From positions 1-11,294 of the forward strand of contig DASXHV010000153.1 in the NCBI GenBank assembly GCA_036488285.1: a stretch of 11,294 nt of DNA, in the 5' to 3' direction. The stretch's first letter is position 1, and each line of letters starts with the position of its first letter. The notes beneath the pieces were generated by a model, which did no database searches, was not told the DNA's origin, and saw only the letters and a list, made by a program, of their open reading frames with translations. The translations under genes and the position numbers were made by a program. Below, piece after piece: positions 205 to 10,922 of the stretch. Source of the DNA: Jatrophihabitans sp. GTDB taxonomy: Bacteria; Actinomycetota; Actinomycetes; Mycobacteriales; Jatrophihabitantaceae.

Positions 205-1380
205 TCAGCCTTCCCCGGGCGCGTCGAGAGATCGCTGCGCGCGCTGCGGAGCATCGGCGTCGCTCTTGCCTGCCTCGTCGACGAAGCTGTCACCAATAGT
301 GCCGGCAAGACCGTTGCGAACCGAGTCGAGCAAGGCCATCCCCTGACCGGCCAACGACGCCACCACGCCGCCCAATCCGTCCGCGCCGTTGAGGACGGTC
401 AGATTCGCGCCCTGCAATCCCTCCGCTGCAGCGCGAAGCATGTCCGGGAGTTGCTCGATAACTCGCTGATCCAAGGCGATTCGGTCCTGCGCAGCGGCAG
501 CTTCTGCCGACAGTTTGGTCGCGTCGGCCTGCGCCCGGGCCAGGGTGATGATCCGTTCCGCTTCGGCCTGCGCCGGTTTGACCACCTCGGCGATGAGTTC
601 GGCCTCGCGTAGTTCGGCATTCTTCTGCGCGACGAGGGACCGTTCCACCAGCACGGCCTGCTGTGCCTGCGCGGCGGCAAGCGGTCCGGCCTGGGCCGCC
701 TTCTGCTGAGCCTGATCGATCTCGGCCTGGTACTGCGCCCGGGCTACCGCGGTTTGCCGGGCGTACTCGGCTTGGTTGCGGGCACTCTCCTGTTGAGCCA
801 TCGCGCTGGCCTGATCGGCGGCAGCCTGCGCCACGTGAGCTGCCTGGTTGACCGCTGCCTGGTGTGGCGCTGCGAGGGCCTGGATATATCCGACGCCCCG
901 GTCATCGATGCTGCTGATCTGCAGCGAATCGACCGCCAGTCCGATCTTTCCCATCTCGCCCTTGCTTGCGTCCAGGATCGCCTCGCCGAGCGTTTGCTGC
1001 TCTCGGATGATGGCCTCAACGGTCATGCTGCCGATGATGCTGCGCAGATGGCCGCTGAAGATTCGTCCTACCAACGTTGCCATTTGTGATTGATCGCCCT
1101 GGAACCGTCGCGCGGCCGCGGCGATGGATTCGTGGTCGTCGCCGACCTTGAACGCGATCACTGCCTGCACGGCGAGCGTCAGTCCCTGCTTGGTGTAGCA
1201 GTCTTCGATCACCTCGGCTTCCTGCATAGCCAGTGTCAACGTCGAGGCGCGAGAAACGATCGGCATCACGAACACGCCGTGACCGGTTACGATCTTGAAC
1301 TGCAATCCCGTCTCGCCGCGCTGCTTCTTTCCACTGATGAGCAAGGCCTCGTTGGGCGCAGGAACGCGATATCCGAACAT
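205..1380 (-). CDS. Flotillin-like SPFH/band-7 protein (391 aa) with an Ala/Gln/Glu-rich C-terminal coiled-coil region
   Basis: The N-terminal about 160 aa align by eye with bacterial flotillin SPFH domains (PNEALLISG...KIVTGHGVFVMPI...YTKQGL). A long AQQA/AEAE-rich region follows, typical of flotillin EA-repeat coiled coils. The ATG at 1380-1378 lies 2 nt after the stop of the upstream gene, and an AAGGG sits about 10 nt upstream. There is no N-terminal hydrophobic segment. Confidence 0.85.
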   Translation of the reverse strand: MFGYRVPAPNEALLISGKKQRGETGLQFKIVTGHGVFVMPIVSRASTLTLAMQEAEVIEDCYTKQGLTLAVQAVIAFKVGDDHESIAAAARRFQGDQSQMATLVGRIFSGHLRSIIGSMTVEAIIREQQTLGEAILDASKGEMGKIGLAVDSLQISSIDDRGVGYIQALAAPHQAAVNQAAHVAQAAADQASAMAQQESARNQAEYARQTAVARAQYQAEIDQAQQKAAQAGPLAAAQAQQAVLVERSLVAQKNAELREAELIAEVVKPAQAEAERIITLARAQADATKLSAEAAAAQDRIALDQRVIEQLPDMLRAAAEGLQGANLTVLNGADGLGGVVASLAGQGMALLDSVRNGLAGTIGDSFVDEAGKSDADAPQRAQRSLDAPGEG

Positions 1381-1382
1381 TT

Positions 1383-1637
1383 TCAGAACCCTTCATGTGG
1401 GCCGACGACATCGGCGATGCCCAATCCCGGTTGATCCCATGGCTCGACGTCGAGTTGGCGCGAGCCTCTGTTGTTGATGACGAGTACCTGCTGACCCACG
1501 GCGAGAGGCTCGCGATGGTAGGCGATGTAGTAGTGCGGCAGTCCTTCGACGACCACCCGCACCTCCCCGGGTAGGTCACCGCCACGAACTGGCGTGGTCA
1601 CGATGCCGACGCACCCGACCAGGGCAGTTTCGCTCAT
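1383..1637 (-). CDS. NfeD-like OB-fold (beta-barrel) domain protein, 84 aa, without a membrane anchor
   Basis: The alternating hydrophobic pattern LVGCVGIVTTPVRGGDLPGEVRVVVEGLPHYYIAYHREPLAVGQQVLVINNRGSRQLDVEP matches the C-terminal OB-fold of NfeD/YuaF-type proteins that partner SPFH proteins. The gene sits immediately upstream of, and 2 nt from, the flotillin gene. An in-frame stop (complement of 1644-1646) closes the frame just upstream of the ATG at 1637, so no TM region can be appended. Confidence 0.6.
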   Translation of the reverse strand: MSETALVGCVGIVTTPVRGGDLPGEVRVVVEGLPHYYIAYHREPLAVGQQVLVINNRGSRQLDVEPWDQPGLGIADVVGPHEGF

Positions 1638-1696: not shown

Positions 1697-2359
1697 TCAT
1701 AGGTTGTCGCTCGGCTGGCTCGGGGAGGCCATCGCGCCATGCTCCGACGAGCGGGCTTCTGACATCGCATAGCCGCCGGAGGCGACCGCAGCGACCCCGA
1801 TTACACCCAAGGCGGTGGCCAACACCATCAGCGCGCCCGCGACGTCGGTGCCGGCGTCCGCAGCGTCGTCCACGAACACCCGAGCGAGTCCAGTGCAGCT
1901 GATGTGCACCGGACCGGTGCTAGCGGCCTGGAAGGTAGCGAACTCGGTGAGATCTCGCGGGTCGTCCTTGGTCGACTGGATGCTCAGCTGCGTCTCGACG
2001 CCGGTGGGGTCGGTGGCGTGGCAGTTCAGTGCGGCGCCAGTCGTCAACAACCCCAACTTGGTCAACGCAGCGACACCGCCCGGCGCCGACAACTGATAGA
2101 CCTTGCCCGCTGTGAGCTGATAGGTCGCAGGGGGTATCGCGCCCTTGTCATAGGCATGGCGCTGGCCAGCGGCAAGCACCCGGGATCCACCGAAGGCAAC
2201 CAGCCCCAGCAACAGCACAACGACACCTGCGCCGAACCGCGCGGCGGGGGCCAGCCGCGGCCGTCGCGCAACCGAAGACCGCGGCGCGCCGGAGTAACCC
2301 GCGCGGTGCGGTTCAGGTCGTTCGATGTCGGCCATCTCCCAGATCCTCTCGTACGGCAC
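1697..2359 (-). CDS. Hypothetical membrane protein (about 212-220 aa) with two predicted TM helices flanking a roughly 130-aa extracytoplasmic domain containing two Cys
   Basis: The ORF has two hydrophobic stretches, GAGVVVLLLGLVAFGG and GALMVLATALGVIGVAAVASGG, separated by a polar domain. The start is uncertain: GTG at 2359 or ATG at 2335-2333 (MADIERPEP...). It lies 59 nt upstream of the NfeD-like gene on the same strand. Confidence 0.5.
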   Translation of the reverse strand: MPYERIWEMADIERPEPHRAGYSGAPRSSVARRPRLAPAARFGAGVVVLLLGLVAFGGSRVLAAGQRHAYDKGAIPPATYQLTAGKVYQLSAPGGVAALTKLGLLTTGAALNCHATDPTGVETQLSIQSTKDDPRDLTEFATFQAASTGPVHISCTGLARVFVDDAADAGTDVAGALMVLATALGVIGVAAVASGGYAMSEARSSEHGAMASPSQPSDNL

Positions 2360-2371
2360 GATGGACGTCTT

Positions 2372-3577
2372 GTGCGAGTTCTGATGGTGTCATGGGAGTT
2401 CCCGCCGGTCATCGTCGGCGGGCTGGGTCGTCATGTCTCAGATCTGGCTAACGCGCTGTCCGAGCAAGGCCACGACGTCCGGGTATTGACCAGAGGTACT
2501 GCCCGGCACTCAGTCACAGAGTCTGTCGATGGCGTGCCGGTGACCAGGGCCGCCGACGACGAGCTTGACATCGGTCTGGCCGCCGAATCGATCCTCGCCT
2601 GGACGCAGGCGTTCGAACATGCGCTGATCCGCGCCGGTCTGCAACTGCTCGATGCCTGGCGGCCCGACGTCATTCACGCCCATGACTGGCTGGTGGCTCA
2701 GACCAGCCGCACCCTGCAGGGGCGGTGTGGCGCTCCGCTCGTCGTCACGATGCACGCCACCGAATACGGTCGCCAGCAGGGCTGGCTCCAACAGCCGGTG
2801 CCGCGTGCCATCCATTCGGTCGAACGATGGCTGTGCCGTCGTGCCGACCGCGTCATCGCGTGCTCGCGATTCATGGCTGACCAGGTCGCGGCCATCGTCG
2901 ACCTTGCTCCCGGTTCAGTGGCCATCGTCGGCAACGGCATCGATCCCGCGCAGTGGAAGCCGGCCGGAGCCGACATCGAGGCGGCCCGCCGCCGGTACCT
3001 CACGGACGGGGCCACCGGCCCGTTGATTGCCTTCGCCGGCCGGCTCGTGCATGAGAAGGGCTTGCAGGAACTCATCAAAGCCTTGCCCCTGCTGCGTCCG
3101 GACCATCCCGGTCTGCGCGCCGTCGTCGTCGGACGAGGGCCGGACGAGGACGATCAGCGCGACCGGGCGCATCGCTACCAGGTCGCCGACCTGATCAGCT
3201 GGCCCGGATTCCTGCGCACCGCCGAACTCGCGGCGGTTCTCGGTGCCGCAGACGTCGTCGTGGTGCCTTCGTTGTACGAACCGTTCGGCATGGTCGCGTT
3301 GGAGTCCCAGGCCGTCGGAACGCCGGTCGCGGTCTCAGACACCGGCGGCCTGCGCGACCTGGTGGCCGACGGGCGCACCGGAGTTCGATTCGCGTCGAAG
3401 AATCCGGCCGCGATAGCCGATGCCGTCCGAACGCTGCTGGCCGATCCTGCGCGCACTGCGACGATGGCGGCCACCGCGCGCGATCACGCCCGGACTCGAT
3501 TCAGCCATGCGTCGGTGGCATCCCGGGTCGCTGAGATCTACTCCTCGGTCCAGAATGCGCCGTCCAGCACTCGCTGA
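2372..3577 (+). CDS. GT4-family (GT-B fold) retaining glycosyltransferase resembling actinobacterial Rv3032-type alpha-1,4-glucan glucosyltransferases
   Basis: The E-X7-E motif EPFGMVALE is present. The N-terminus ([22 protein letters not shown]) matches the Glyco_trans_4 / Glycos_transf_1 architecture, as do the HAHDW and ATEYGR motifs. The ORF is open from 1904, but the sensible start is GTG 2372 ([11 protein letters not shown]) or ATG 2384. The 3' end overlaps the convergent PLP-enzyme gene by 40 nt. Confidence 0.85.
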
Positions 3578-4632
3578 AGCTGCTCGGTGTGCGGGGCAAG
3601 GTCCATGCCACGCTCGGCTATCCAGTCGTCGGAGTAATACGTCTGGAGATAGCGCTCGCCGTTGTCGCAGATGAGCGTGACGATCGAGCCCGAAACACCG
3701 GCCGCACGCATCCCGGAGGCAACCCGCAGCGCGCCGACGAAATTCGTTCCGGTGGAGGCTCCGACCCGTTTGCCCAGTGCCTGCTGGAGCAACCGCATCG
3801 CTGCGATCGAGGCCGCATCGGGTACTGCGATCATCCGGTCCACCACATCACCGACGAAGCTCGGCTCGACACGAGGCCTTCCGATGCCTTCGATACGGGA
3901 ACCCTTGCCGGTCACGACCTTGTCACTGTTGGCCTGCCAGCCAGGCAGGAACGCCGAGTTCTCCACGTCCACGACACACAGCCGGGTCGCCAGCCGTCGG
4001 TAGCGGATGTAACGCCCGATGGTTGCCGACGTCCCACCGGTACCGGCGCCGACGACGACCCACTCCGGCACCGGGTGCCGTTCCAGGGCCAGCTGGGCAA
4101 AGATCGACTCGGCGATGTTGTTGTTGCCACGCCAGTCGGTGGCCCGTTCGGCAAAGGTGAACTGATCGATGTAGTGGCCGTTGCAGTCAGCGACCAGTCG
4201 GGCGGCCTCCGAGTACACGGTGTTCGGGTCCTCGACGAGATGGCAGCGGCCACCTTCGCGTTCGATCAGCGCGATCTTTTGCTCCGACGTCGATCGCGGC
4301 ATCACCGCCACGAACGGCAGTCCGAGCATCCGAGCGAAGTACGCCTCGCTGATCGCGGTCGATCCGGATGACGCCTCGACGACGGTAGTGCCCTCGCGCA
4401 GCCAGCCGTTGGCGAGGGCGTAGAGGAACAGCGATCGGGCCAGGCGGTGCTTCAGCGAACCGGTGGGGTGAGTGGATTCGTCCTTGAAATACAGGTCGAT
4501 CCCCCAGTCAGTTGGTAGCTCGAACCGGACCAGGTGGGTGTCCGCCGACCGGTTGGCATCCGCCTCGACCTTGCGCATCGCCTCGTCGCACCAGGCACGG
4601 GCGCTGCGCGAACTGCGGTCGAGATCAGTCAT
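3538..4632 (-). CDS. Fold-type-II PLP-dependent enzyme of the cysteine synthase / cystathionine beta-synthase family (364 aa) with non-canonical active-site residues
   Basis: The PLP-lysine motif reads GSLKHR and aligns with SVKDR of CysK. The glycine loop GAGTGGT binds the PLP phosphate. The substrate loop is SSGSTA where CysK has TSGNTG. The ATG at 4632-4630 overlaps the upstream stop as ATGA. Confidence 0.85.
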
Positions 4633-5375
4633 CGTCGGCGTCCCTCACCCTCGTCGGCACTCTGATCGGCATCGGCGATCAGTGTGGCAGCCGGCTGGAC
4701 ATCGACGGCACGGGCATCGGCAGCGGCGGAATGCTCATCCCGCCGACTGCGCAACACCCGGGCCGGCACGCCCGCGGCAATCGAGTACGCAGGCAGATTC
4801 CGGGTGACGACGGCGTTGGCCGCAACCACGCTCCCTTGCCCGACAGCGGAGCCGCGTACCACGGTGGCTTTGGTGCCGAGCCACACGTCGGCACCGATGC
4901 GCACCGGCGACTTGGCGATGCCCTGATCCTTGATCGGCACGTCGGCGTTGTCGAAGATGTGGTCGAAGTCGGCGATGTACACCATGTCGGCGATGATGGA
5001 CGCCGCCCCGACGCTGACATCGAGGTAGCAGTTCACGACGTCATGCCGGCCGAACACCACCTTGTCGCCGATCTGCAAGGTGCCCTCGTGGCAGCGCAGC
5101 GACGTCCCGTCGCCCAGATGCACCCAGCGACCAAGAATCAGCCGGCCGTAGCCGGGCCGCGCATAGAGCTCGACGCCCCTGCCGATAAAGACGAAACCTG
5201 CCGTGGTGATGTGCGGGTTGGCGATCCTGAAGCGCAGGAAGCGCCAGTACCGCAACAGATACCACGGTGTGTACGCGCGGTGTTCGAGCACCCACCGCAG
5301 GCTGGCGAGGGTGACGAATCGAGCTTGTCGCGGGTCTCTCGAGGTCGCTCGCCAGGCCCGCCACCGGTCGAACAT
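4629..5375 (-). CDS. Left-handed beta-helix (hexapeptide-repeat) O-acetyltransferase, LacA/Mac/NodL-like
   Basis: Hexapeptide repeats are followed by [32 protein letters not shown], which aligns with the catalytic His loop and the VW(I/L)G hallmark of sugar O-acetyltransferases. The ORF track extends the gene to 5441, but the ATG at 5375-5373 sits 2 nt after the upstream stop (5380-5378), which favours the shorter 248-aa form. Confidence 0.8.
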
Positions 5376-5377
5376 GA

Positions 5378-6073
5378 TCAGTTGGTGGTGGCGATCCGCG
5401 GGTACAGGATCTGATCGACCAGGTCGGCGGCCCGCTGGCACAACCAGGCGGCGCCGGCCTCCGTCAACTCCTCGACGGAGCCGTAGCCCCAGAGCGCGCC
5501 CGCGCAGGCGATCCCGTGCGCGGCGGCACCCAGGACGTCTTGGCTACGGTCGCCGACCATCAGGACTGTGCCCGGATCGGGGTTGCCCAGTCGGTCGAGC
5601 ACCGCGCCGATCACGAGCGCCTTGGAGTCGCGCTGCCCGTCCAGGGTGTCGCCGCCGATCGTCTCGAAGTGACCGGCCAGACCGAGATGTCCCAGGATCT
5701 CGGTGGCATGCTGCTCGGGCTTGCTGGTCGCGACCGCAAGTCGAATACCCTTGTCCGACAAGGCCTTCAAGACTTCTGCGATGCCATCGTAGACGGAGGT
5801 TTCGAACATCCCGCCATCGTCGACGTAATGCCGGCGGTACGCCGCGACCGCCTCCTCGACGCGATCCTTGCCGACCAGTGGCGGCAAGGTGTGCCAGAAC
5901 GGAGGACCGAGCAGCGAACGTGCTGTCGGCTCGTCCAGCCATGGCAGGCCAAGGTCGGCGAAAGCTGCCTCCAGGCAGCGGAGAATGCCGGGCGAGGAGT
6001 CGCTGAGCGTGCCGTCGAGATCGAACAGCACGGTGTCATAGATCGCGTGCGGGTTTGCTGCCGGCTCATTCAT
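5378..6073 (-). CDS. HAD-superfamily phosphatase (phosphoglycolate-phosphatase-like subfamily IA), 231 aa
   Basis: The HAD motifs are present: motif I FDLDGT, motif II ATS, motif IV GDRSQD. The ATG at 6073-6071 overlaps the methyltransferase stop (6072-6070) as ATGA. The upstream part of the 359-aa ORF lies in an alternate frame of the MTase gene and is rejected. Confidence 0.8.
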   Translation of the reverse strand: MNEPAANPHAIYDTVLFDLDGTLSDSSPGILRCLEAAFADLGLPWLDEPTARSLLGPPFWHTLPPLVGKDRVEEAVAAYRRHYVDDGGMFETSVYDGIAEVLKALSDKGIRLAVATSKPEQHATEILGHLGLAGHFETIGGDTLDGQRDSKALVIGAVLDRLGNPDPGTVLMVGDRSQDVLGAAAHGIACAGALWGYGSVEELTEAGAAWLCQRAADLVDQILYPRIATTN

Positions 6074-7044
6074 TCCGGCTTCGTCCCGGTGATTTCCAGG
6101 TTGTAGAACAGCCCGGCGGGCACCACTCTGGCCAACAGGTTCGAGTCGGCCGCATGCAGTCTCTTCCACATGCTGAAAGCGAAGTTCGCCCACCCGAATC
6201 CGAGCTTGCCTGGCGGCACGGCCGCCTCGAAGGTACGGACCGGCCAGCCGAACCATGCCGCGGTGAGTTCGTCGGTGCGGCTCTGAACGTCGATCGCTCC
6301 GGACCGCAACGCGGTTCGTCGTAGCTCGCCGGGGTCGAAGGTGTGGATGTCCACGACCGCCTCCAGCGCTGCTGCCCGAGAGGATTCGTCCAGCTCGGCC
6401 TTGGGCCGCGCCCATTGCCGCAGCTTGGGCAGCCGGGTCACGCGGGTGGTCGCCCACCAGGTGAATCGCGACAGCCGTCGCGCCACGATGTCGCCGTATC
6501 TCGTCGGTTCACCCGCGAAGACGAAGCGGCCACCCGGTTTGAGAACTCGAAGCACCTCGCGCAGGGCCTGCTCCACATCGGGAATGTGGTGCAGCACCGC
6601 ATGCCCGACCACCAGATCGAAACTGTCGTCGGGGTACGGGATCGACTCGGCGTCGGCCACTCGCCCCTCGATGTCCAATCCCAGCTTGGCGGCGTTGCCA
6701 GTGGCGACCTCGACCATGCCCGGACTCAGATCCGTGACATGCCCGGACTCGATGACGCCGGCCAGTTTGAGGTTCAGCAGAAAGAATCCGGTGCCGCAAC
6801 CCAGCTCCAGCGCCGAGGCGTACGGCCAGCCATCCGTGCCCGCGACGTGACTGAAGCGGTCCCGGGCGTAATCGATGCACCGTCGGTCGAAGCTGATGGA
6901 CCACTTCTCGTCATAGCTGCCCGATTCCCAGTCGTGGTACAGGACATTGGCGAGTTTCGGATCGCGCCAGGCCGCCTCGACCTGTTCGGCGGTGGCATGG
7001 GCACGAGGCTGGGCATGCGCCTGCGGCGCGGCTGCGGTCGTCAT
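6070..7044 (-). CDS. Class I SAM-dependent methyltransferase (324 aa)
   Basis: Motif I LELGCGTGFF is present, with an acidic residue downstream and the post-motif PGGRFVF. The ATG at 7044-7042 overlaps the echA stop (7046-7044) in a TGATG arrangement. The rest of the 544-aa ORF up to 7704 is an alternate frame of echA and is rejected. Confidence 0.85.
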   Translation of the reverse strand: MTTAAAPQAHAQPRAHATAEQVEAAWRDPKLANVLYHDWESGSYDEKWSISFDRRCIDYARDRFSHVAGTDGWPYASALELGCGTGFFLLNLKLAGVIESGHVTDLSPGMVEVATGNAAKLGLDIEGRVADAESIPYPDDSFDLVVGHAVLHHIPDVEQALREVLRVLKPGGRFVFAGEPTRYGDIVARRLSRFTWWATTRVTRLPKLRQWARPKAELDESSRAAALEAVVDIHTFDPGELRRTALRSGAIDVQSRTDELTAAWFGWPVRTFEAAVPPGKLGFGWANFAFSMWKRLHAADSNLLARVVPAGLFYNLEITGTKPE

Positions 7045-7823
7045 CAGTTTCCTACGAACTCGGCCTTGCCCGGTCCGTTCTCGATGAACGATTGGATGCC
7101 TCGCTGCTTGTCCTCGGTGGCGAACAGACTGGCGAACAAGTGGGATTCCAGCTTCAGCCCGGTTGACAGGTCGCTGTCGAGTCCTTGCTGGATAGCGGCT
7201 TTGGCGGCACGCAGAGCCAGCGACGGGCCGGCAGCGAACTTGGCCGCCATCGCGTGCGTGGTGCTGAGCACCTGATCGGCCTCCACGACGACGTCGACCA
7301 GGCCGATCTCGTGCGCCTCGGCAGCGTCGACGATCCGGCCGGTGTAGATCAGGTCCTTGGCCTTGGAAACCCCGACCAGGCGCGGCAGCCGCTGGGTGCC
7401 TCCCATTCCCGGGATGATCCCGAGCAGGATCTCCGGCTGACCCCATTTCGCGGTGTCGGCGCTGATGCGGAAGTCCGCGGTCATGGCCAGTTCGCAGCCG
7501 CCGCCGAGCGCAAAGCCGGTCACCGCTGCAATCACCGGCTTGGGGATCTGTGCAACCGAGTCGATCGAGCTCATGACCTCCTCGGCCCGCCGGGTGATGT
7601 CCTGCGGCGACATGGTGTGGAACTCCTTGACGTCCGCGCCTGCCACGAAGACCTTTTCGCCACCCCACAGGATGACCGCCCGGATGTCGTCGCGCCGGCT
7701 GCACTCCTCGGCGGCTGCACGCAGCTCTTGCTGCACCTGAGTGTTCAACGCGTTGACCGGCGGCCGATCGATCCGGATGGTGCCGACCGCGCCTTCGACC
7801 TCGAGGTGGACAAGTTCGCTCAT
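7044..7823 (-). CDS. Enoyl-CoA hydratase/isomerase (crotonase family), 259 aa
   Basis: The crotonase signature is present ([23 protein letters not shown]; GADVKEF). The ATG at 7823-7821 (MSELVHLEV...) is chosen over the ORF-track start at 7919. An AGG lies about 10 nt upstream. Confidence 0.85.
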
Positions 7824-7866
7824 GCGCCGGAGCCTACCTACTCGCCGGTACACCACGATTCGGGCG

Positions 7867-8694
7867 TCACTGTGCCCTGGCGTAGAAGCGGCCGGCGTCG
7901 TTGTCCACCGACAAGGCAAGCCCGAACGCCTCGGACAGGTTCTGCGAGGTGAGCACGTCGTTGATCAGACCTTGGCTGACGACCTTGCCGTCCCTGAGCA
8001 GCATCGCGTGGCTGATGCCGAGCGGGATCTCCTCGACGTGGTGGGTCACCAGGATCATCGTCGGCGCATCCGGATCCGCGGCAAGCTTGGCCAGTCGGCG
8101 GAGCAGATCCTCACGACCGCCCAGGTCCATCCCGGCGGCAGGCTCGTCCAGCAGCAGCAATTCGGGGTCGGTCATCATCGCCCGGGCGATCTGCACCCGC
8201 TTGCGCTCCCCCTCGCTCAGCGTGCCGTAGCTGCGCTCGGTCAGGTCGCCCACTCCGAAGCGAGCCAGCAGCATCCGGGCCCGCCGGACATCGAGGCGAC
8301 CGTAGGCCTCCCGCCAGCGCCCGATCACGGCGTAGCCGGCCGAGACAACCACGTCCAACACGTTCTCGCCGCCAGGAATGCGCTGGGCCAGTGCAGCTGA
8401 GGCCAGCCCGATGCGGGGCCGTAGTTCGAACACGTCGACTGCCCCGAGCTGCTCGCCCAGAACACCGACGGTGCCCGCGCTGGGATGCATCGTGGTCGCC
8501 GCCAGTTGGAGAAGCGTCGTCTTGCCGGCGCCGTTGGCCCCCAGGATCACCCAACGCTCGTCGTCCTCGACGGTCCAGTCGATGCTGTCGAGCAGCAGCT
8601 TGGAGCCACGCCGGACACTCGCCTGCCGCATTTGCAGGATCGCGTCCGGATTCAATTCATCTTCTGGTGCTGGCACTGCCCCATCCAACCGCAT
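7867..8694 (-). CDS. ABC-type ATPase (275 aa) with no transmembrane/permease partner in the window
   Basis: The canonical ABC motifs are present: Walker A GANGAGKTT, signature variant LSEGERKRV, Walker B LLLLDEPAAGMD, and H-loop VTHH. The ATG at 8694-8692 is preceded by GAGGTG with 5-6 nt spacing. The longer ORF-track start (8763) would overlap glgX and is rejected. Confidence 0.85.
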   Translation of the reverse strand: MRLDGAVPAPEDELNPDAILQMRQASVRRGSKLLLDSIDWTVEDDERWVILGANGAGKTTLLQLAATTMHPSAGTVGVLGEQLGAVDVFELRPRIGLASAALAQRIPGGENVLDVVVSAGYAVIGRWREAYGRLDVRRARMLLARFGVGDLTERSYGTLSEGERKRVQIARAMMTDPELLLLDEPAAGMDLGGREDLLRRLAKLAADPDAPTMILVTHHVEEIPLGISHAMLLRDGKVVSQGLINDVLTSQNLSEAFGLALSVDNDAGRFYARAQ

Positions 8695-8750
8695 CTTCAC
8701 CTCGGACGATCTCCGACATAGCCGTTTGTACAGCGTAGGGTGCCGATTCG
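8695..8750. promoter_or_regulatory. 56-bp divergent intergenic region between the ABC ATPase and glgX; presumed to hold both promoters
   Basis: This is the only sizeable non-coding gap between divergent genes. It contains a TAGGGT (TANNNT-type -10 candidate) 12 nt upstream of the glgX ATG. It also contains an inverted repeat TCGGA-CGATC-TCCGA (8702-8716) that overlaps the ABC gene's GAGGTG ribosome-binding site. Confidence 0.3.

Positions 8751-10914
<2,164 letters not shown>

Positions 10915-10922
<8 letters not shown>

What the first reader, a model, noticed from the sequence alone, without database searches (positions are those of the whole stretch)
3538..4632. Cysteine-synthase-family PLP enzyme with altered catalytic and substrate-loop residues and an N-terminal extension
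Aligned by eye against CysK, the Schiff-base lysine motif reads S-L-K-H-R instead of S-V-K-D-R: His replaces the conserved Asp. The substrate alpha-carboxylate loop reads S-S-G-S-T-A instead of T-S-G-N-T-G: the conserved Asn is lost and Gly becomes Ala. The PLP-phosphate loop GAGTGGT is intact. About 40 extra residues precede the core ([32 protein letters not shown]...), including a Cys. These changes are in the positions that determine substrate and nucleophile specificity in the fold-type-II beta-replacement enzymes (CysK, CysM, CBS, SbnA). The enzyme is therefore probably not an ordinary O-acetylserine sulfhydrylase and may catalyse a different beta-substitution or elimination.
Basis: partly seen in the sequence, partly recalled or inferred. 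Interest (0 to 1): 0.55.

Follow-up and report, generated by a model that had tools for sequence, protein, structure and literature searches.

The report
Ordinary Cds1-type L-cysteine desulfhydrase gene
This gene encodes an ordinary actinobacterial copy of Cds1, the known enzyme that breaks cysteine into hydrogen sulfide, pyruvate and ammonia.

Summary
The ORF at 3538-4632 (minus strand, 364 aa) is real and intact. The motifs are as described: S59-L-K61-H-R63, S88-S-G-S-T-A93 and G195-A-G-T-G-G-T201. The N-terminal extension exists but is about 17-19 residues longer than E. coli CysK, not about 40.

These features are not peculiar to this protein. It passes NCBI's curated model for "L-cysteine desulfhydrase Cds1" (611.9 bits, cutoff 600). 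It fails the CysK, CysM, CBS and SbnA models by a wide margin.

It is 64% identical over 356 residues to Mycobacterium tuberculosis Cds1 (Rv3684). That enzyme has the same three motifs and the same N-terminal segment. It was shown in 2021 to convert L-cysteine into H2S and pyruvate.

The motifs are invariant in 26 close homologues. They persist down to about 39% identity, including in Proteobacteria.

The enzyme family is already known, characterised and curated.

What remains open is small. No Cds1 structure exists, nobody has explained what His62, Ser91 and Ala93 do, and the Mtb enzyme's Km for cysteine (about 11 mM) is high. Interest is low.

The parts
3538..4632 (-). cds1: 364-aa fold-type-II PLP enzyme, orthologue of M. 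tuberculosis L-cysteine desulfhydrase Cds1 (Rv3684)
   Evidence: The ORF is listed. Pfam PALP gives E = 5e-56 over residues 32-323. NCBIfam NF052478 Cds1 equivalog gives 611.9 bits against a cutoff of 600. The protein is 64% identical over 356 aa to Mtb Cds1. The AF2 model has mean pLDDT 80.7 and its best PDB folds are the CysK, CBS and CmnB family.
4444..4458 (-). S59-L-K61-H62-R63: Schiff-base lysine motif, with His where most CysK/CBS enzymes have Asp
   Evidence: Translated and aligned to SVKDR of CBS and SVKCR of E. coli CysK. All five residues are invariant in 26 homologues and identical in Mtb Cds1. K-H-R is kept in nearly all full-length representatives down to about 39% identity.
4354..4371 (-). 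S88-S-G-S91-T-A93: the counterpart of the 'asparagine loop' (TSGNTG) that binds the substrate carboxylate. Asn is replaced by Ser and Gly by Ala.
   Evidence: Translated and aligned to TSGNTG. It is invariant in 26 homologues, identical in Mtb Cds1 and kept across the clade. The role of this loop in CysK/CBS comes from PMC9547175 and PMC8225704.
4030..4050 (-). G195-A-G-T-G-G-T201: PLP phosphate-binding loop, intact
   Evidence: Translated and invariant in the 26-sequence alignment. It corresponds to G203-T207, listed as PLP-binding in Mtb Cds1 (Suppl. Fig. S3 legend).
4105..4149 (-). E162[14 protein letters not shown]176: family-specific conserved block after the conserved D-Q157-F, with no counterpart in CysK
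   Evidence: Translated. Most positions are invariant in 26 homologues and the block is identical in Mtb Cds1. E. coli CysK has NPANPEIHEKTTGPE here. AF2 confidence is low in this block (pLDDT 54).
3745..3762 (-). G291-A-S293-T-G-T296: the loop whose Ser faces the PLP pyridine nitrogen (GISSGA in CysK)
   Evidence: Translated. G291, S293, T294 and G295 are invariant. The loop aligns to GISSGA of E. coli CysK. S293 corresponds to S299, listed as PLP-binding in Mtb Cds1.
4540..4632 (-). N-terminal segment (residues 1-31) that precedes the PALP core. Residues 12-31 are a conserved family element predicted to be a helix. Residues 1-11 are variable.
   Evidence: R12, W14, A18, R20, E23, A24, D25 and R28-S-A-D-T-H-L34 are invariant. 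The segment is homologous to '[22 protein letters not shown]' of Mtb Cds1, and peptides from that region were detected by LC-MS/MS (Suppl. Fig. S4). AF2 predicts a helix at residues 9-28, with pLDDT about 90 for residues 11-20. The NCBIfam Cds1 model starts at residue 13.
4629..5441 (-). Upstream hexapeptide-repeat acyltransferase gene. Its TGA stop overlaps the cds1 ATG (ATGA), so the two are probably co-transcribed and translationally coupled.
Evidence: The ATGA overlap is shown. Jatrophihabitans telluris has the same 4-bp overlap and gene order (L004).

Best explanation
The ORF encodes an orthologue of Cds1, the PLP-dependent L-cysteine desulfhydrase first characterised as M. tuberculosis Rv3684. 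It belongs to the cysteine-synthase/CBS fold (fold type II) but runs only the first half of the CysK reaction, in the catabolic direction.

Proposed mechanism:
1. Lys61 holds PLP as an internal aldimine.
2. L-cysteine displaces Lys61 to form the external aldimine.
3. Lys61 removes the C-alpha proton and HS- leaves from C-beta, giving the alpha-aminoacrylate-PLP intermediate.
4. A nucleophile is not captured, as it would be in CysK or CBS. Instead Lys61 re-attacks, and aminoacrylate is released and hydrolyses to pyruvate and ammonium.
5. Net reaction: L-Cys + H2O -> pyruvate + NH4+ + H2S.

What is shown here: family membership, end-to-end orthology with the characterised enzyme, and conservation of every PLP-binding and family-signature residue.

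What is shown elsewhere, for the Mtb enzyme: the products (H2S and pyruvate), PLP dependence, the kinetics and the knockout phenotype.

What is inferred: that this Jatrophihabitans protein has the same activity. Also inferred is that the family-specific residues His62, Ser91 and Ala93, in and next to the loop that closes over and stabilises the aminoacrylate in CysK/CBS, bias the enzyme towards release of aminoacrylate rather than beta-replacement. The likely physiological role is cysteine catabolism or detoxification and endogenous sulfide production.
For: - **Family model:** NCBIfam NF052478 'L-cysteine desulfhydrase Cds1' (equivalog) gives 611.9 bits against a cutoff of 600, covering model positions 1-353 of 354. 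The next best family scores only 151.8 bits. The reconstructed Mtb Cds1 scores 703.8 bits and other Jatrophihabitans and Actinoalloteichus orthologues score 617-660 bits.
- **Orthology:** BLASTP gives 64% identity and 76% positives over 356 residues with only 4 gap positions, including the N-terminal segment.
- **Shared motifs:[33 protein letters not shown] and G(A/P)STGT are the same in both proteins.
- **PLP residues:** The residues named as PLP-binding or catalytic for Mtb Cds1 are L66, K67, S73, G203-T207, S299 and D329. They correspond to L60, K61, S67, G197-T201, S293 and D323 here, all invariant in 26 homologues.
- **Biochemistry of the orthologue:** Purified Rv3684 makes H2S and pyruvate from L-Cys, with Km 11.26 mM and kcat 78.7 s-1. 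In Mtb lysate, H2S production depends on PLP and is blocked by AOAA. Deleting cds1 lowers H2S production (PMC8389258).
- **Distribution already reported:** Orthologues outside Mycobacterium were already noted in that paper.
- **Fold:** The AF2 model has the CysK/CBS fold, with Foldseek probability 1.00 and TM about 0.7-0.8.
Against: - The score clears the equivalog cutoff by only 12 bits.
- No activity has been measured for this protein or for any non-mycobacterial member.
- The Mtb enzyme's Km for cysteine (about 11 mM) is high for a physiological substrate.
- M. smegmatis makes barely detectable H2S, although all mycobacteria carry a homologue of more than 76% identity. Presence of the gene therefore does not by itself predict sulfide production.
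- Gene neighbourhood is not conserved between Mtb (ponA2-rv3683-cds1) and this lineage, so context gives no independent support for the function.
- No Cds1 structure has been solved (best PDB sequence hit is E = 5e-26 to CBS). The proposed roles of His62, Ser91 and Ala93 are untested.
Confidence: 0.8

Rival explanations
1. The Cds1 clade's physiological reaction is not cysteine desulfhydration. The H2S and pyruvate formation seen in vitro would be a side activity. The real substrate would be another beta-substituted amino acid, or the enzyme would perform a beta-replacement with an unidentified nucleophile.
For: - The Km for L-Cys of the only characterised member is about 11 mM.
- From my own knowledge, not tested here: CysK, CysM and CBS-type enzymes also release H2S from cysteine as side reactions.
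- The substrate-binding loop and a 15-residue family-specific block are strictly conserved across phyla. That suggests selection for a specific ligand.
- In Jatrophihabitans the gene is the last in a run of overlapping methyltransferase, HAD phosphatase and acyltransferase genes.
Against: - Deleting cds1 in Mtb reduces H2S production in cells and lysates and impairs growth in 4 mM cysteine. Complementation restores this.
- Pyruvate was identified directly as a product.
- The neighbourhood is not conserved outside the genus, so the operon partners are unlikely to define the chemistry.
Confidence: 0.15
2. It is an ordinary cysteine synthase (O-acetylserine or O-phosphoserine sulfhydrylase, CysK/CysM) with a few tolerated substitutions.
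For: - It has the same fold and PLP-binding loops.
- Databases label it 'cysteine synthase A' or 'cysteine synthase family protein'.
- The position after the catalytic Lys is variable even in true CysK (Cys in E. coli).
Against: - It scores far below every curated cutoff: cysK 117.1 against 350.95, cysM 102.7 against 394.2, cysKM 129.9 against 344.15.
- It is only 26% identical to E. coli CysK.
- The Asn of the carboxylate loop is lost throughout the clade.
- The characterised orthologue produces pyruvate from cysteine.
Confidence: 0.03
3. It is a non-functional relic or an annotation artefact of a high-GC genome.
For: The window has many spurious long ORFs on both strands because GC is about 65%.
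Against: - It aligns over its full length with no frameshift or stop, and all catalytic and PLP residues are intact.
- Dozens of homologues of 70-84% identity are the same length.
- It has a plausible ribosome-binding site and translational coupling to the upstream gene.
Confidence: 0.01

Closest known systems
M. tuberculosis Cds1 (Rv3684), L-cysteine desulfhydrase; NCBIfam NF052478
   Same: - 64% identity over 356 residues.
- The same length class (364 against 368 aa).
- The same N-terminal helix segment.
- Identical SLKHR, SSGSTA, GAGTGGT and [15 protein letters not shown] motifs, and G(A/P)STGT.
- It passes the curated equivalog cutoff.
- In both organisms the start codon overlaps the stop of the upstream gene.
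   Different: - The host order is different (a Jatrophihabitans MAG rather than Mycobacterium).
- The neighbours are different: a hexapeptide acyltransferase upstream and a convergent GT4 downstream here, against ponA2-rv3683 upstream in Mtb.
- The score is near the lower edge of the family model (611.9 against 703.8 for Mtb).
- The activity has not been measured.
CysK / O-acetylserine sulfhydrylase A (e.g. E. coli CysK, PDB 8zyc)
   Same: - The fold-type-II PLP fold.
- The Schiff-base Lys, the G-x-G-T-G-G-T phosphate loop, the Gln of 'QF' and the Ser facing the pyridine N all align.
- Both generate the same alpha-aminoacrylate intermediate (established mechanism, PMC9547175).
   Different: - Only 26% identity.
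- The Asn loop TSGNTG is replaced by SSGSTA.
- The motif is K-H-R instead of K-D/C-R.
- It has 17-19 extra N-terminal residues and a different 160-176 block.
- It scores below the cutoff of the cysK models.
- The reaction runs as an elimination to pyruvate instead of a sulfide addition.
Cystathionine beta-synthase catalytic domain (e.g. Toxoplasma CBS 6xwl, Mtb Rv1077)
   Same: It gives the best sequence hits in the PDB (E = 5e-26, about 29-30% identity) and aligns over the whole catalytic core, including the C-terminal 'SD.W' stretch. It can also release H2S from cysteine.
   Different: - CBS makes H2S by beta-replacement (giving serine, lanthionine or cystathionine), not pyruvate.
- CBS has SVKDR and TSGNTG.
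- CBS has a C-terminal Bateman module that is absent here.
- TIGR01137 scores 117 bits against a cutoff of 510.
SbnA / CmnB / DcsD-type beta-replacement enzymes of secondary metabolism
   Same: They are structural neighbours in the same subfamily (CmnB 8if7, TMq 0.76; DcsD 3x43/3x44). They show that loop changes in this fold can retune substrate and nucleophile.
   Different: TIGR03945 SbnA scores 141.5 bits against a cutoff of 349.95. Those enzymes catalyse replacement with amine or ureido nucleophiles and sit in biosynthetic clusters. No such cluster is present here.

Membership tests
Cds1 L-cysteine desulfhydrase (NCBIfam NF052478, equivalog) | Whole-protein HMM score at or above the curated cutoff of 600 bits | tested here: met
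   The score is 611.9 bits, E = 4e-184, covering model positions 1-353 of 354. This clears the cutoff narrowly. Mtb Cds1 itself scores 703.8. Proteobacterial relatives score 257-532 and fail.
Cds1 L-cysteine desulfhydrase | End-to-end homology with the characterised enzyme Rv3684, including the N-terminal segment confirmed by mass spectrometry | tested here: met
   Identity is 64% over 356 residues, query 11-362 against subject 13-368. The Mtb sequence was rebuilt from the OCR text of Suppl. Fig. S4 of PMC8389258, using its DNA line to correct three OCR slips.
Cds1 L-cysteine desulfhydrase | Family signature residues: S-L-K-H-R, S-S-G-S-T-A and [15 protein letters not shown] | tested here: met
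   All are present and identical in Mtb Cds1. SLKHR and SSGSTA are invariant in 26 homologues; in the [15 protein letters not shown] block all but two positions are invariant, and those two are at least 90% conserved.
Cds1 L-cysteine desulfhydrase | PLP-binding and catalytic residues named for Mtb Cds1 (L66, K67, S73, G203-T207, S299, D329) | tested here: met
   The equivalents L60, K61, S67, G197-T201, S293 and D323 are all present and invariant.
Cds1 L-cysteine desulfhydrase | Catalyses L-cysteine -> H2S + pyruvate + NH3 | not testable with these tools
   This is known only for the Mtb enzyme. It requires an enzyme assay.
CysK, O-acetylserine sulfhydrylase A (TIGR01139 / NF007989) | HMM score at or above the curated cutoff | tested here: not met
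   TIGR01139 scores 117.1 against 350.95 and NF007989 scores 151.8 against 387.
CysK / CysM / CBS | Asparagine loop T/S-S-G-N-T-G that binds the substrate carboxylate | tested here: not met
   The loop is SSGSTA: Asn is replaced by Ser91 and Gly by Ala93 in HMMER and BLASTP alignments.
CysM (TIGR01138), CBS (TIGR01137), SbnA (TIGR03945) | HMM score at or above the curated cutoff | tested here: not met
   The scores are 102.7 against 394.2, 117.0 against 510.25 and 141.5 against 349.95. There is no Bateman/CBS-pair domain. PALP is the only Pfam hit.
Fold-type-II PLP enzymes (Pfam PF00291 PALP) | Pfam gathering score, a Schiff-base lysine and a glycine-rich phosphate loop | tested here: met
   The score is 190.6 bits against a cutoff of 35. 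K61 and GAGTGGT are present. The predicted fold matches CysK/CBS structures.

The most novel reading that the evidence does not exclude
The K-H-R / S-S-G-S-T-A clade is large and spans phyla. About 480 clusters at 50% identity match at E <= 1e-30, with members in Actinomycetota, Burkholderiaceae and Halomonadaceae. Only one member has ever been assayed, and only with cysteine, at a Km of about 11 mM. The evidence does not exclude that the clade's true reaction involves another substrate or nucleophile. In that case the strictly conserved His62, Ser91, Ala93 and the [15 protein letters not shown] block would define a specificity not yet described, and cysteine desulfhydration would be a side activity.
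Probability: 0.12. Interest if true: 0.5.

Novelty: already known. Interest (0 to 1): 0.12.

Why it matters
It matters little as a discovery. The gene can be annotated with confidence as cds1 (L-cysteine desulfhydrase) rather than "cysteine synthase A", which is how most databases label its relatives.

The practical points are:
- The generic "cysteine synthase" label on thousands of actinobacterial and some proteobacterial proteins hides a catabolic, sulfide-producing enzyme.
- K-H-R plus S-S-G-S-T-A is a simple signature that separates Cds1-type proteins from CysK, CysM and CBS.
- The structural reason why this clade eliminates rather than substitutes is still unexplained. A crystal structure and H62D, S91N and A93G mutants would answer it.

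Tried and rejected
- **Solved Cds1 structure:** I looked for one and found none. The best PDB sequence hit is CBS at E = 5e-26, and Foldseek finds only CysK, CBS, CmnB and DcsD-type folds at 23-30% identity.
- **Later work on Cds1 mechanism or residues:** I found nothing beyond the 2021 paper. A 2026 review only repeats it.
- **AFDB50 fold search:** The library was unavailable.
- **Gene context as a clue to function:** The HAD-cds1-membrane protein arrangement and the acyltransferase-cds1 overlap are conserved only within Jatrophihabitans. They are absent in Actinoalloteichus, Allonocardiopsis and Mtb. I rejected context as evidence for chemistry.
- **A serine O-acetyltransferase partner:** I considered whether the upstream hexapeptide acyltransferase is a CysE that would pair with a cysteine synthase. 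I rejected this. It best matches WbbJ/WcaF-type sugar O-acetyltransferases (80 bits), and CysE models score 27 bits against cutoffs of 210-397.
- **A redox or metal role for the N-terminal Cys15:** Rejected, because the residue is not conserved.
- **An alternative internal start (Met19):** Rejected, because invariant family residues R12 and W14 lie upstream of it.
- **The 'about 40-residue extension':** Corrected to a net 17-19 residues.
Full report
**1. The observation**

The window has about 65% GC and many spurious long ORFs. The ORF at 3538-4632 on the minus strand (364 aa) is nonetheless a real gene. It is identical to a deposited protein from a Jatrophihabitans sp. metagenome-assembled genome (P0001). 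It matches Pfam PALP (PF00291) over residues 32-323 at E = 5e-56.

- SLKHR at residues 59-63 (window 4444-4458);
- SSGSTA at residues 88-93 (4354-4371);
- GAGTGGT at residues 195-201 (4030-4050).

The substitutions survive proper alignment. HMMER pairs 'GSLKHR' with 'GSVKDR' and 'SSGSTA' with 'TSGNTG' of cystathionine beta-synthase. BLASTP against E. coli CysK puts K61 on K42 and SSGSTA on TSGNTG. I had verified that CysK sequence as a 100% match to PDB 8zyc_A.

Three details need correcting:
- E. coli CysK itself reads SVKCR. The residue after the lysine is therefore not an invariant Asp even in bona fide CysK.
- The N-terminal excess over E. coli CysK is 17-19 residues, not about 40 (T32-H-L34 aligns to T15-P-L17).
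- Cys15 in that segment is not conserved.

M1 is the only start upstream of the invariant residues R12 and W14. It overlaps the TGA of the upstream gene (ATGA) and has GAGGGA 8 nt upstream.

**2. What it is**

NCBIfam gives one hit above a curated cutoff: NF052478, 'L-cysteine desulfhydrase Cds1', an equivalog model. The score is 611.9 bits against a cutoff of 600, with E = 4e-184, covering the model nearly end to end.

Every cysteine-synthase-type model falls far short:

| Model | Score (bits) | Cutoff (bits) |
|---|---|---|
| cysteine synthase A, PRK10717 | 151.8 | 387 |
| SbnA | 141.5 | 350 |
| cysK | 117.1 | 351 |
| CBS | 117.0 | 510 |
| cysM | 102.7 | 394 |

The family is named after M. 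tuberculosis Rv3684. Kunota et al. 2021 (PMC8389258) identified Rv3684 from an H2S-producing band on native gels and purified it. They showed that it converts L-cysteine into H2S and pyruvate (Km 11.26 mM, kcat 78.7 s-1). In Mtb lysate, H2S production depended on PLP and was blocked by AOAA. Deleting the gene lowers H2S production by the cell.

I rebuilt the full Mtb sequence from the paper's Supplementary Figure S4, using the DNA line to correct three OCR slips. The window protein is 64% identical and 76% similar to it over 356 residues, with only 4 gap positions.

Mtb Cds1 has exactly the same SLKHR, SSGSTA, GAGTGGT and [15 protein letters not shown] motifs. It also has the same N-terminal 'W.D.A.R..EADA.RSADTHL' segment. 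The authors detected peptides from that segment by LC-MS/MS and used them to extend the annotated ORF by 22 residues. The reconstructed Mtb protein scores 703.8 bits on the same model. Other Jatrophihabitans and Actinoalloteichus orthologues score 617-660 bits.

**3. The 'altered' residues are the family signature**

In an alignment of 26 homologues of 70-84% identity, several elements are invariant or nearly so:
- S59-L-K-H-R63, S88-S-G-S-T-A93 and G195-T201;
- S293-T-G295 and D323;
- nearly all of the block E162-S176, which has no counterpart in CysK;
- the N-terminal residues R12, W14, A18, R20, E23-A-D25 and R28-L34.

An exhaustive HMMER scan of 1.84 billion cluster representatives found 480 at E <= 1e-30. 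Among the full-length ones, K-H-R and (E/D)ASSGSTA persist down to about 39% identity, with few exceptions.

Named members of these more distant clusters come from Burkholderiaceae (58% identity) and Cobetia (39%). They score below the Cds1 cutoff and are labelled only 'PLP-dependent cysteine synthase family protein'.

The signature therefore defines a deep clade that spans phyla. The window protein is an ordinary member of its actinobacterial core.

**4. Structure**

An AlphaFold2 model built from the 26-sequence alignment has mean pLDDT 80.7 and pTM 0.79. It predicts a confident N-terminal helix at residues 9-28 in front of the PALP core. Confidence is lower in the family-specific stretches (161-170 and 221-260).

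Foldseek against the PDB returns only CysK, CBS, CmnB, DcsD, Fn1055 and CysM-type structures, at 23-30% identity and TM about 0.7-0.8. No Cds1 structure has been solved.

**5. How it most likely works**

The established chemistry of this fold is as follows (PMC9547175; PMC8225704). Lys holds PLP as an internal aldimine. The substrate forms the external aldimine. The active site closes when the substrate carboxylate engages the asparagine loop. Lys then abstracts the C-alpha proton and the beta-leaving group departs, giving alpha-aminoacrylate. The asparagine loop is described as stabilising that intermediate.

In CysK and CBS a second substrate adds to the aminoacrylate. In Cds1 the product is pyruvate. 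The aminoacrylate must therefore be released by re-attack of the lysine and then hydrolyse.

My inference, which is not tested, is that three changes shift the partition from capture to release:
- loss of the Asn side chain (Ser91);
- the Gly-to-Ala change in that loop (Ala93);
- the imidazole next to the catalytic lysine (His62).

The PLP-anchoring residues are all retained: the phosphate loop, Ser293 facing the pyridine N, and Gln157 of 'DQF'.

**6. Surroundings**

The gene order on the minus strand, read in the direction of transcription (window coordinates running downwards), is:
- ABC-type ATPase (7867-8763)
- enoyl-CoA hydratase (7044-7919)
- SAM methyltransferase (about 6070-7050)
- HAD phosphatase (about 5378-6100)
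- hexapeptide acyltransferase (4629-5441)
- cds1 (3538-4632)

A GT4 glycosyltransferase on the plus strand converges on cds1, and their 3' ends overlap by 40 bp.

Jatrophihabitans telluris has the same order, with 4-bp overlaps linking methyltransferase, HAD, acyltransferase and cds1. Two other Jatrophihabitans contigs have ECH-HAD-cds1 followed by a small membrane protein. In Actinoalloteichus, Allonocardiopsis and M. tuberculosis the neighbours are unrelated.

Context is therefore lineage-specific and says nothing firm about the chemistry. The upstream acyltransferase is not a serine acetyltransferase. It best matches WbbJ/WcaF-type enzymes, and the CysE models score far below cutoff.

**7. 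Verdict**

The finding is not novel, for three reasons:
- the enzyme family was characterised in 2021;
- it has a curated equivalog model that this protein passes;
- orthologues outside Mycobacterium were already noted in that paper.

The residual uncertainties belong to the whole family and not to this gene:
- the Km for cysteine is high;
- M. smegmatis produces little H2S despite carrying a close homologue;
- there is no structure and no mutational analysis of the signature residues.

I rate interest as low. I estimate roughly a one-in-eight chance that the clade's physiological reaction differs from cysteine desulfhydration.

Noticed in passing
window 1697-2359 (-); L001 9114-9704; L003 8098-8613; L004 9334-9903: A 220-aa predicted membrane protein has no Pfam or NCBIfam hit. 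It is 48-57% identical to the gene that follows cds1 on the same strand in three other Jatrophihabitans genomes or contigs. It is about 22% identical to the gene after cds1 in Actinoalloteichus. In the window and in J. telluris an opposite-strand GT4 gene sits between the two. This is a genus-level conserved neighbour of unknown function.
   Followed up: partly
window 4629-7050 (-) and L004 4496-8107: In J. telluris, cds1 is the last gene of a run of genes joined by 4-bp overlaps (methyltransferase, HAD phosphatase, hexapeptide acyltransferase, cds1). The window has the same ATGA overlap at the acyltransferase/cds1 junction. HAD-cds1 adjacency also occurs in two other Jatrophihabitans contigs. 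No functional link is evident.
   Followed up: partly
window 2351-3577 (+), 4629-5441 (-), 6070-7050 (-); L004 8074-12110: The window holds a GT4 glycosyltransferase, a hexapeptide acyltransferase and a methyltransferase, and J. telluris adds an adjacent GH57 enzyme and a second methyltransferase. From memory, this resembles the M. tuberculosis methylglucose-lipopolysaccharide gene cluster (Rv3030-Rv3037c). GlgX (8751-10922) is nearby, and a glycogen phosphorylase gene is nearby in the relatives. The resemblance was not tested.
   Followed up: no
window 3538-3577: The 3' ends of cds1 (-) and the GT4 gene (+) overlap by 40 bp, stop to stop. A similar 34-bp convergent overlap is called in J. telluris (L004 8074-8107).
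   Followed up: no
window 205-1380 (-) and 1383-1637 (-): An SPFH/Band-7 flotillin-like gene (391 aa) is immediately preceded by an 84-aa ORF with no family hit. Its position is the one usually held by an NfeD-type partner of SPFH proteins. This was not checked further.
   Followed up: no
E. coli CysK, PDB 8zyc_A (comparison sequence, not in the window): Genuine E. coli CysK has S-V-K-C-R. The 'conserved Asp' after the Schiff-base lysine is therefore not universal in O-acetylserine sulfhydrylases. The Asn-loop change is the more diagnostic difference.
   Followed up: yes
P0122 (Burkholderiaceae), P0251/P0288 (Cobetia sp.) and other representatives: Proteins with the same K-H-R and SSGSTA signature occur outside Actinomycetota at 39-58% identity. 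They fall below the NCBIfam Cds1 cutoff (257-532 bits) and are annotated only as 'PLP-dependent cysteine synthase family protein'. None appears to have been characterised.
   Followed up: partly
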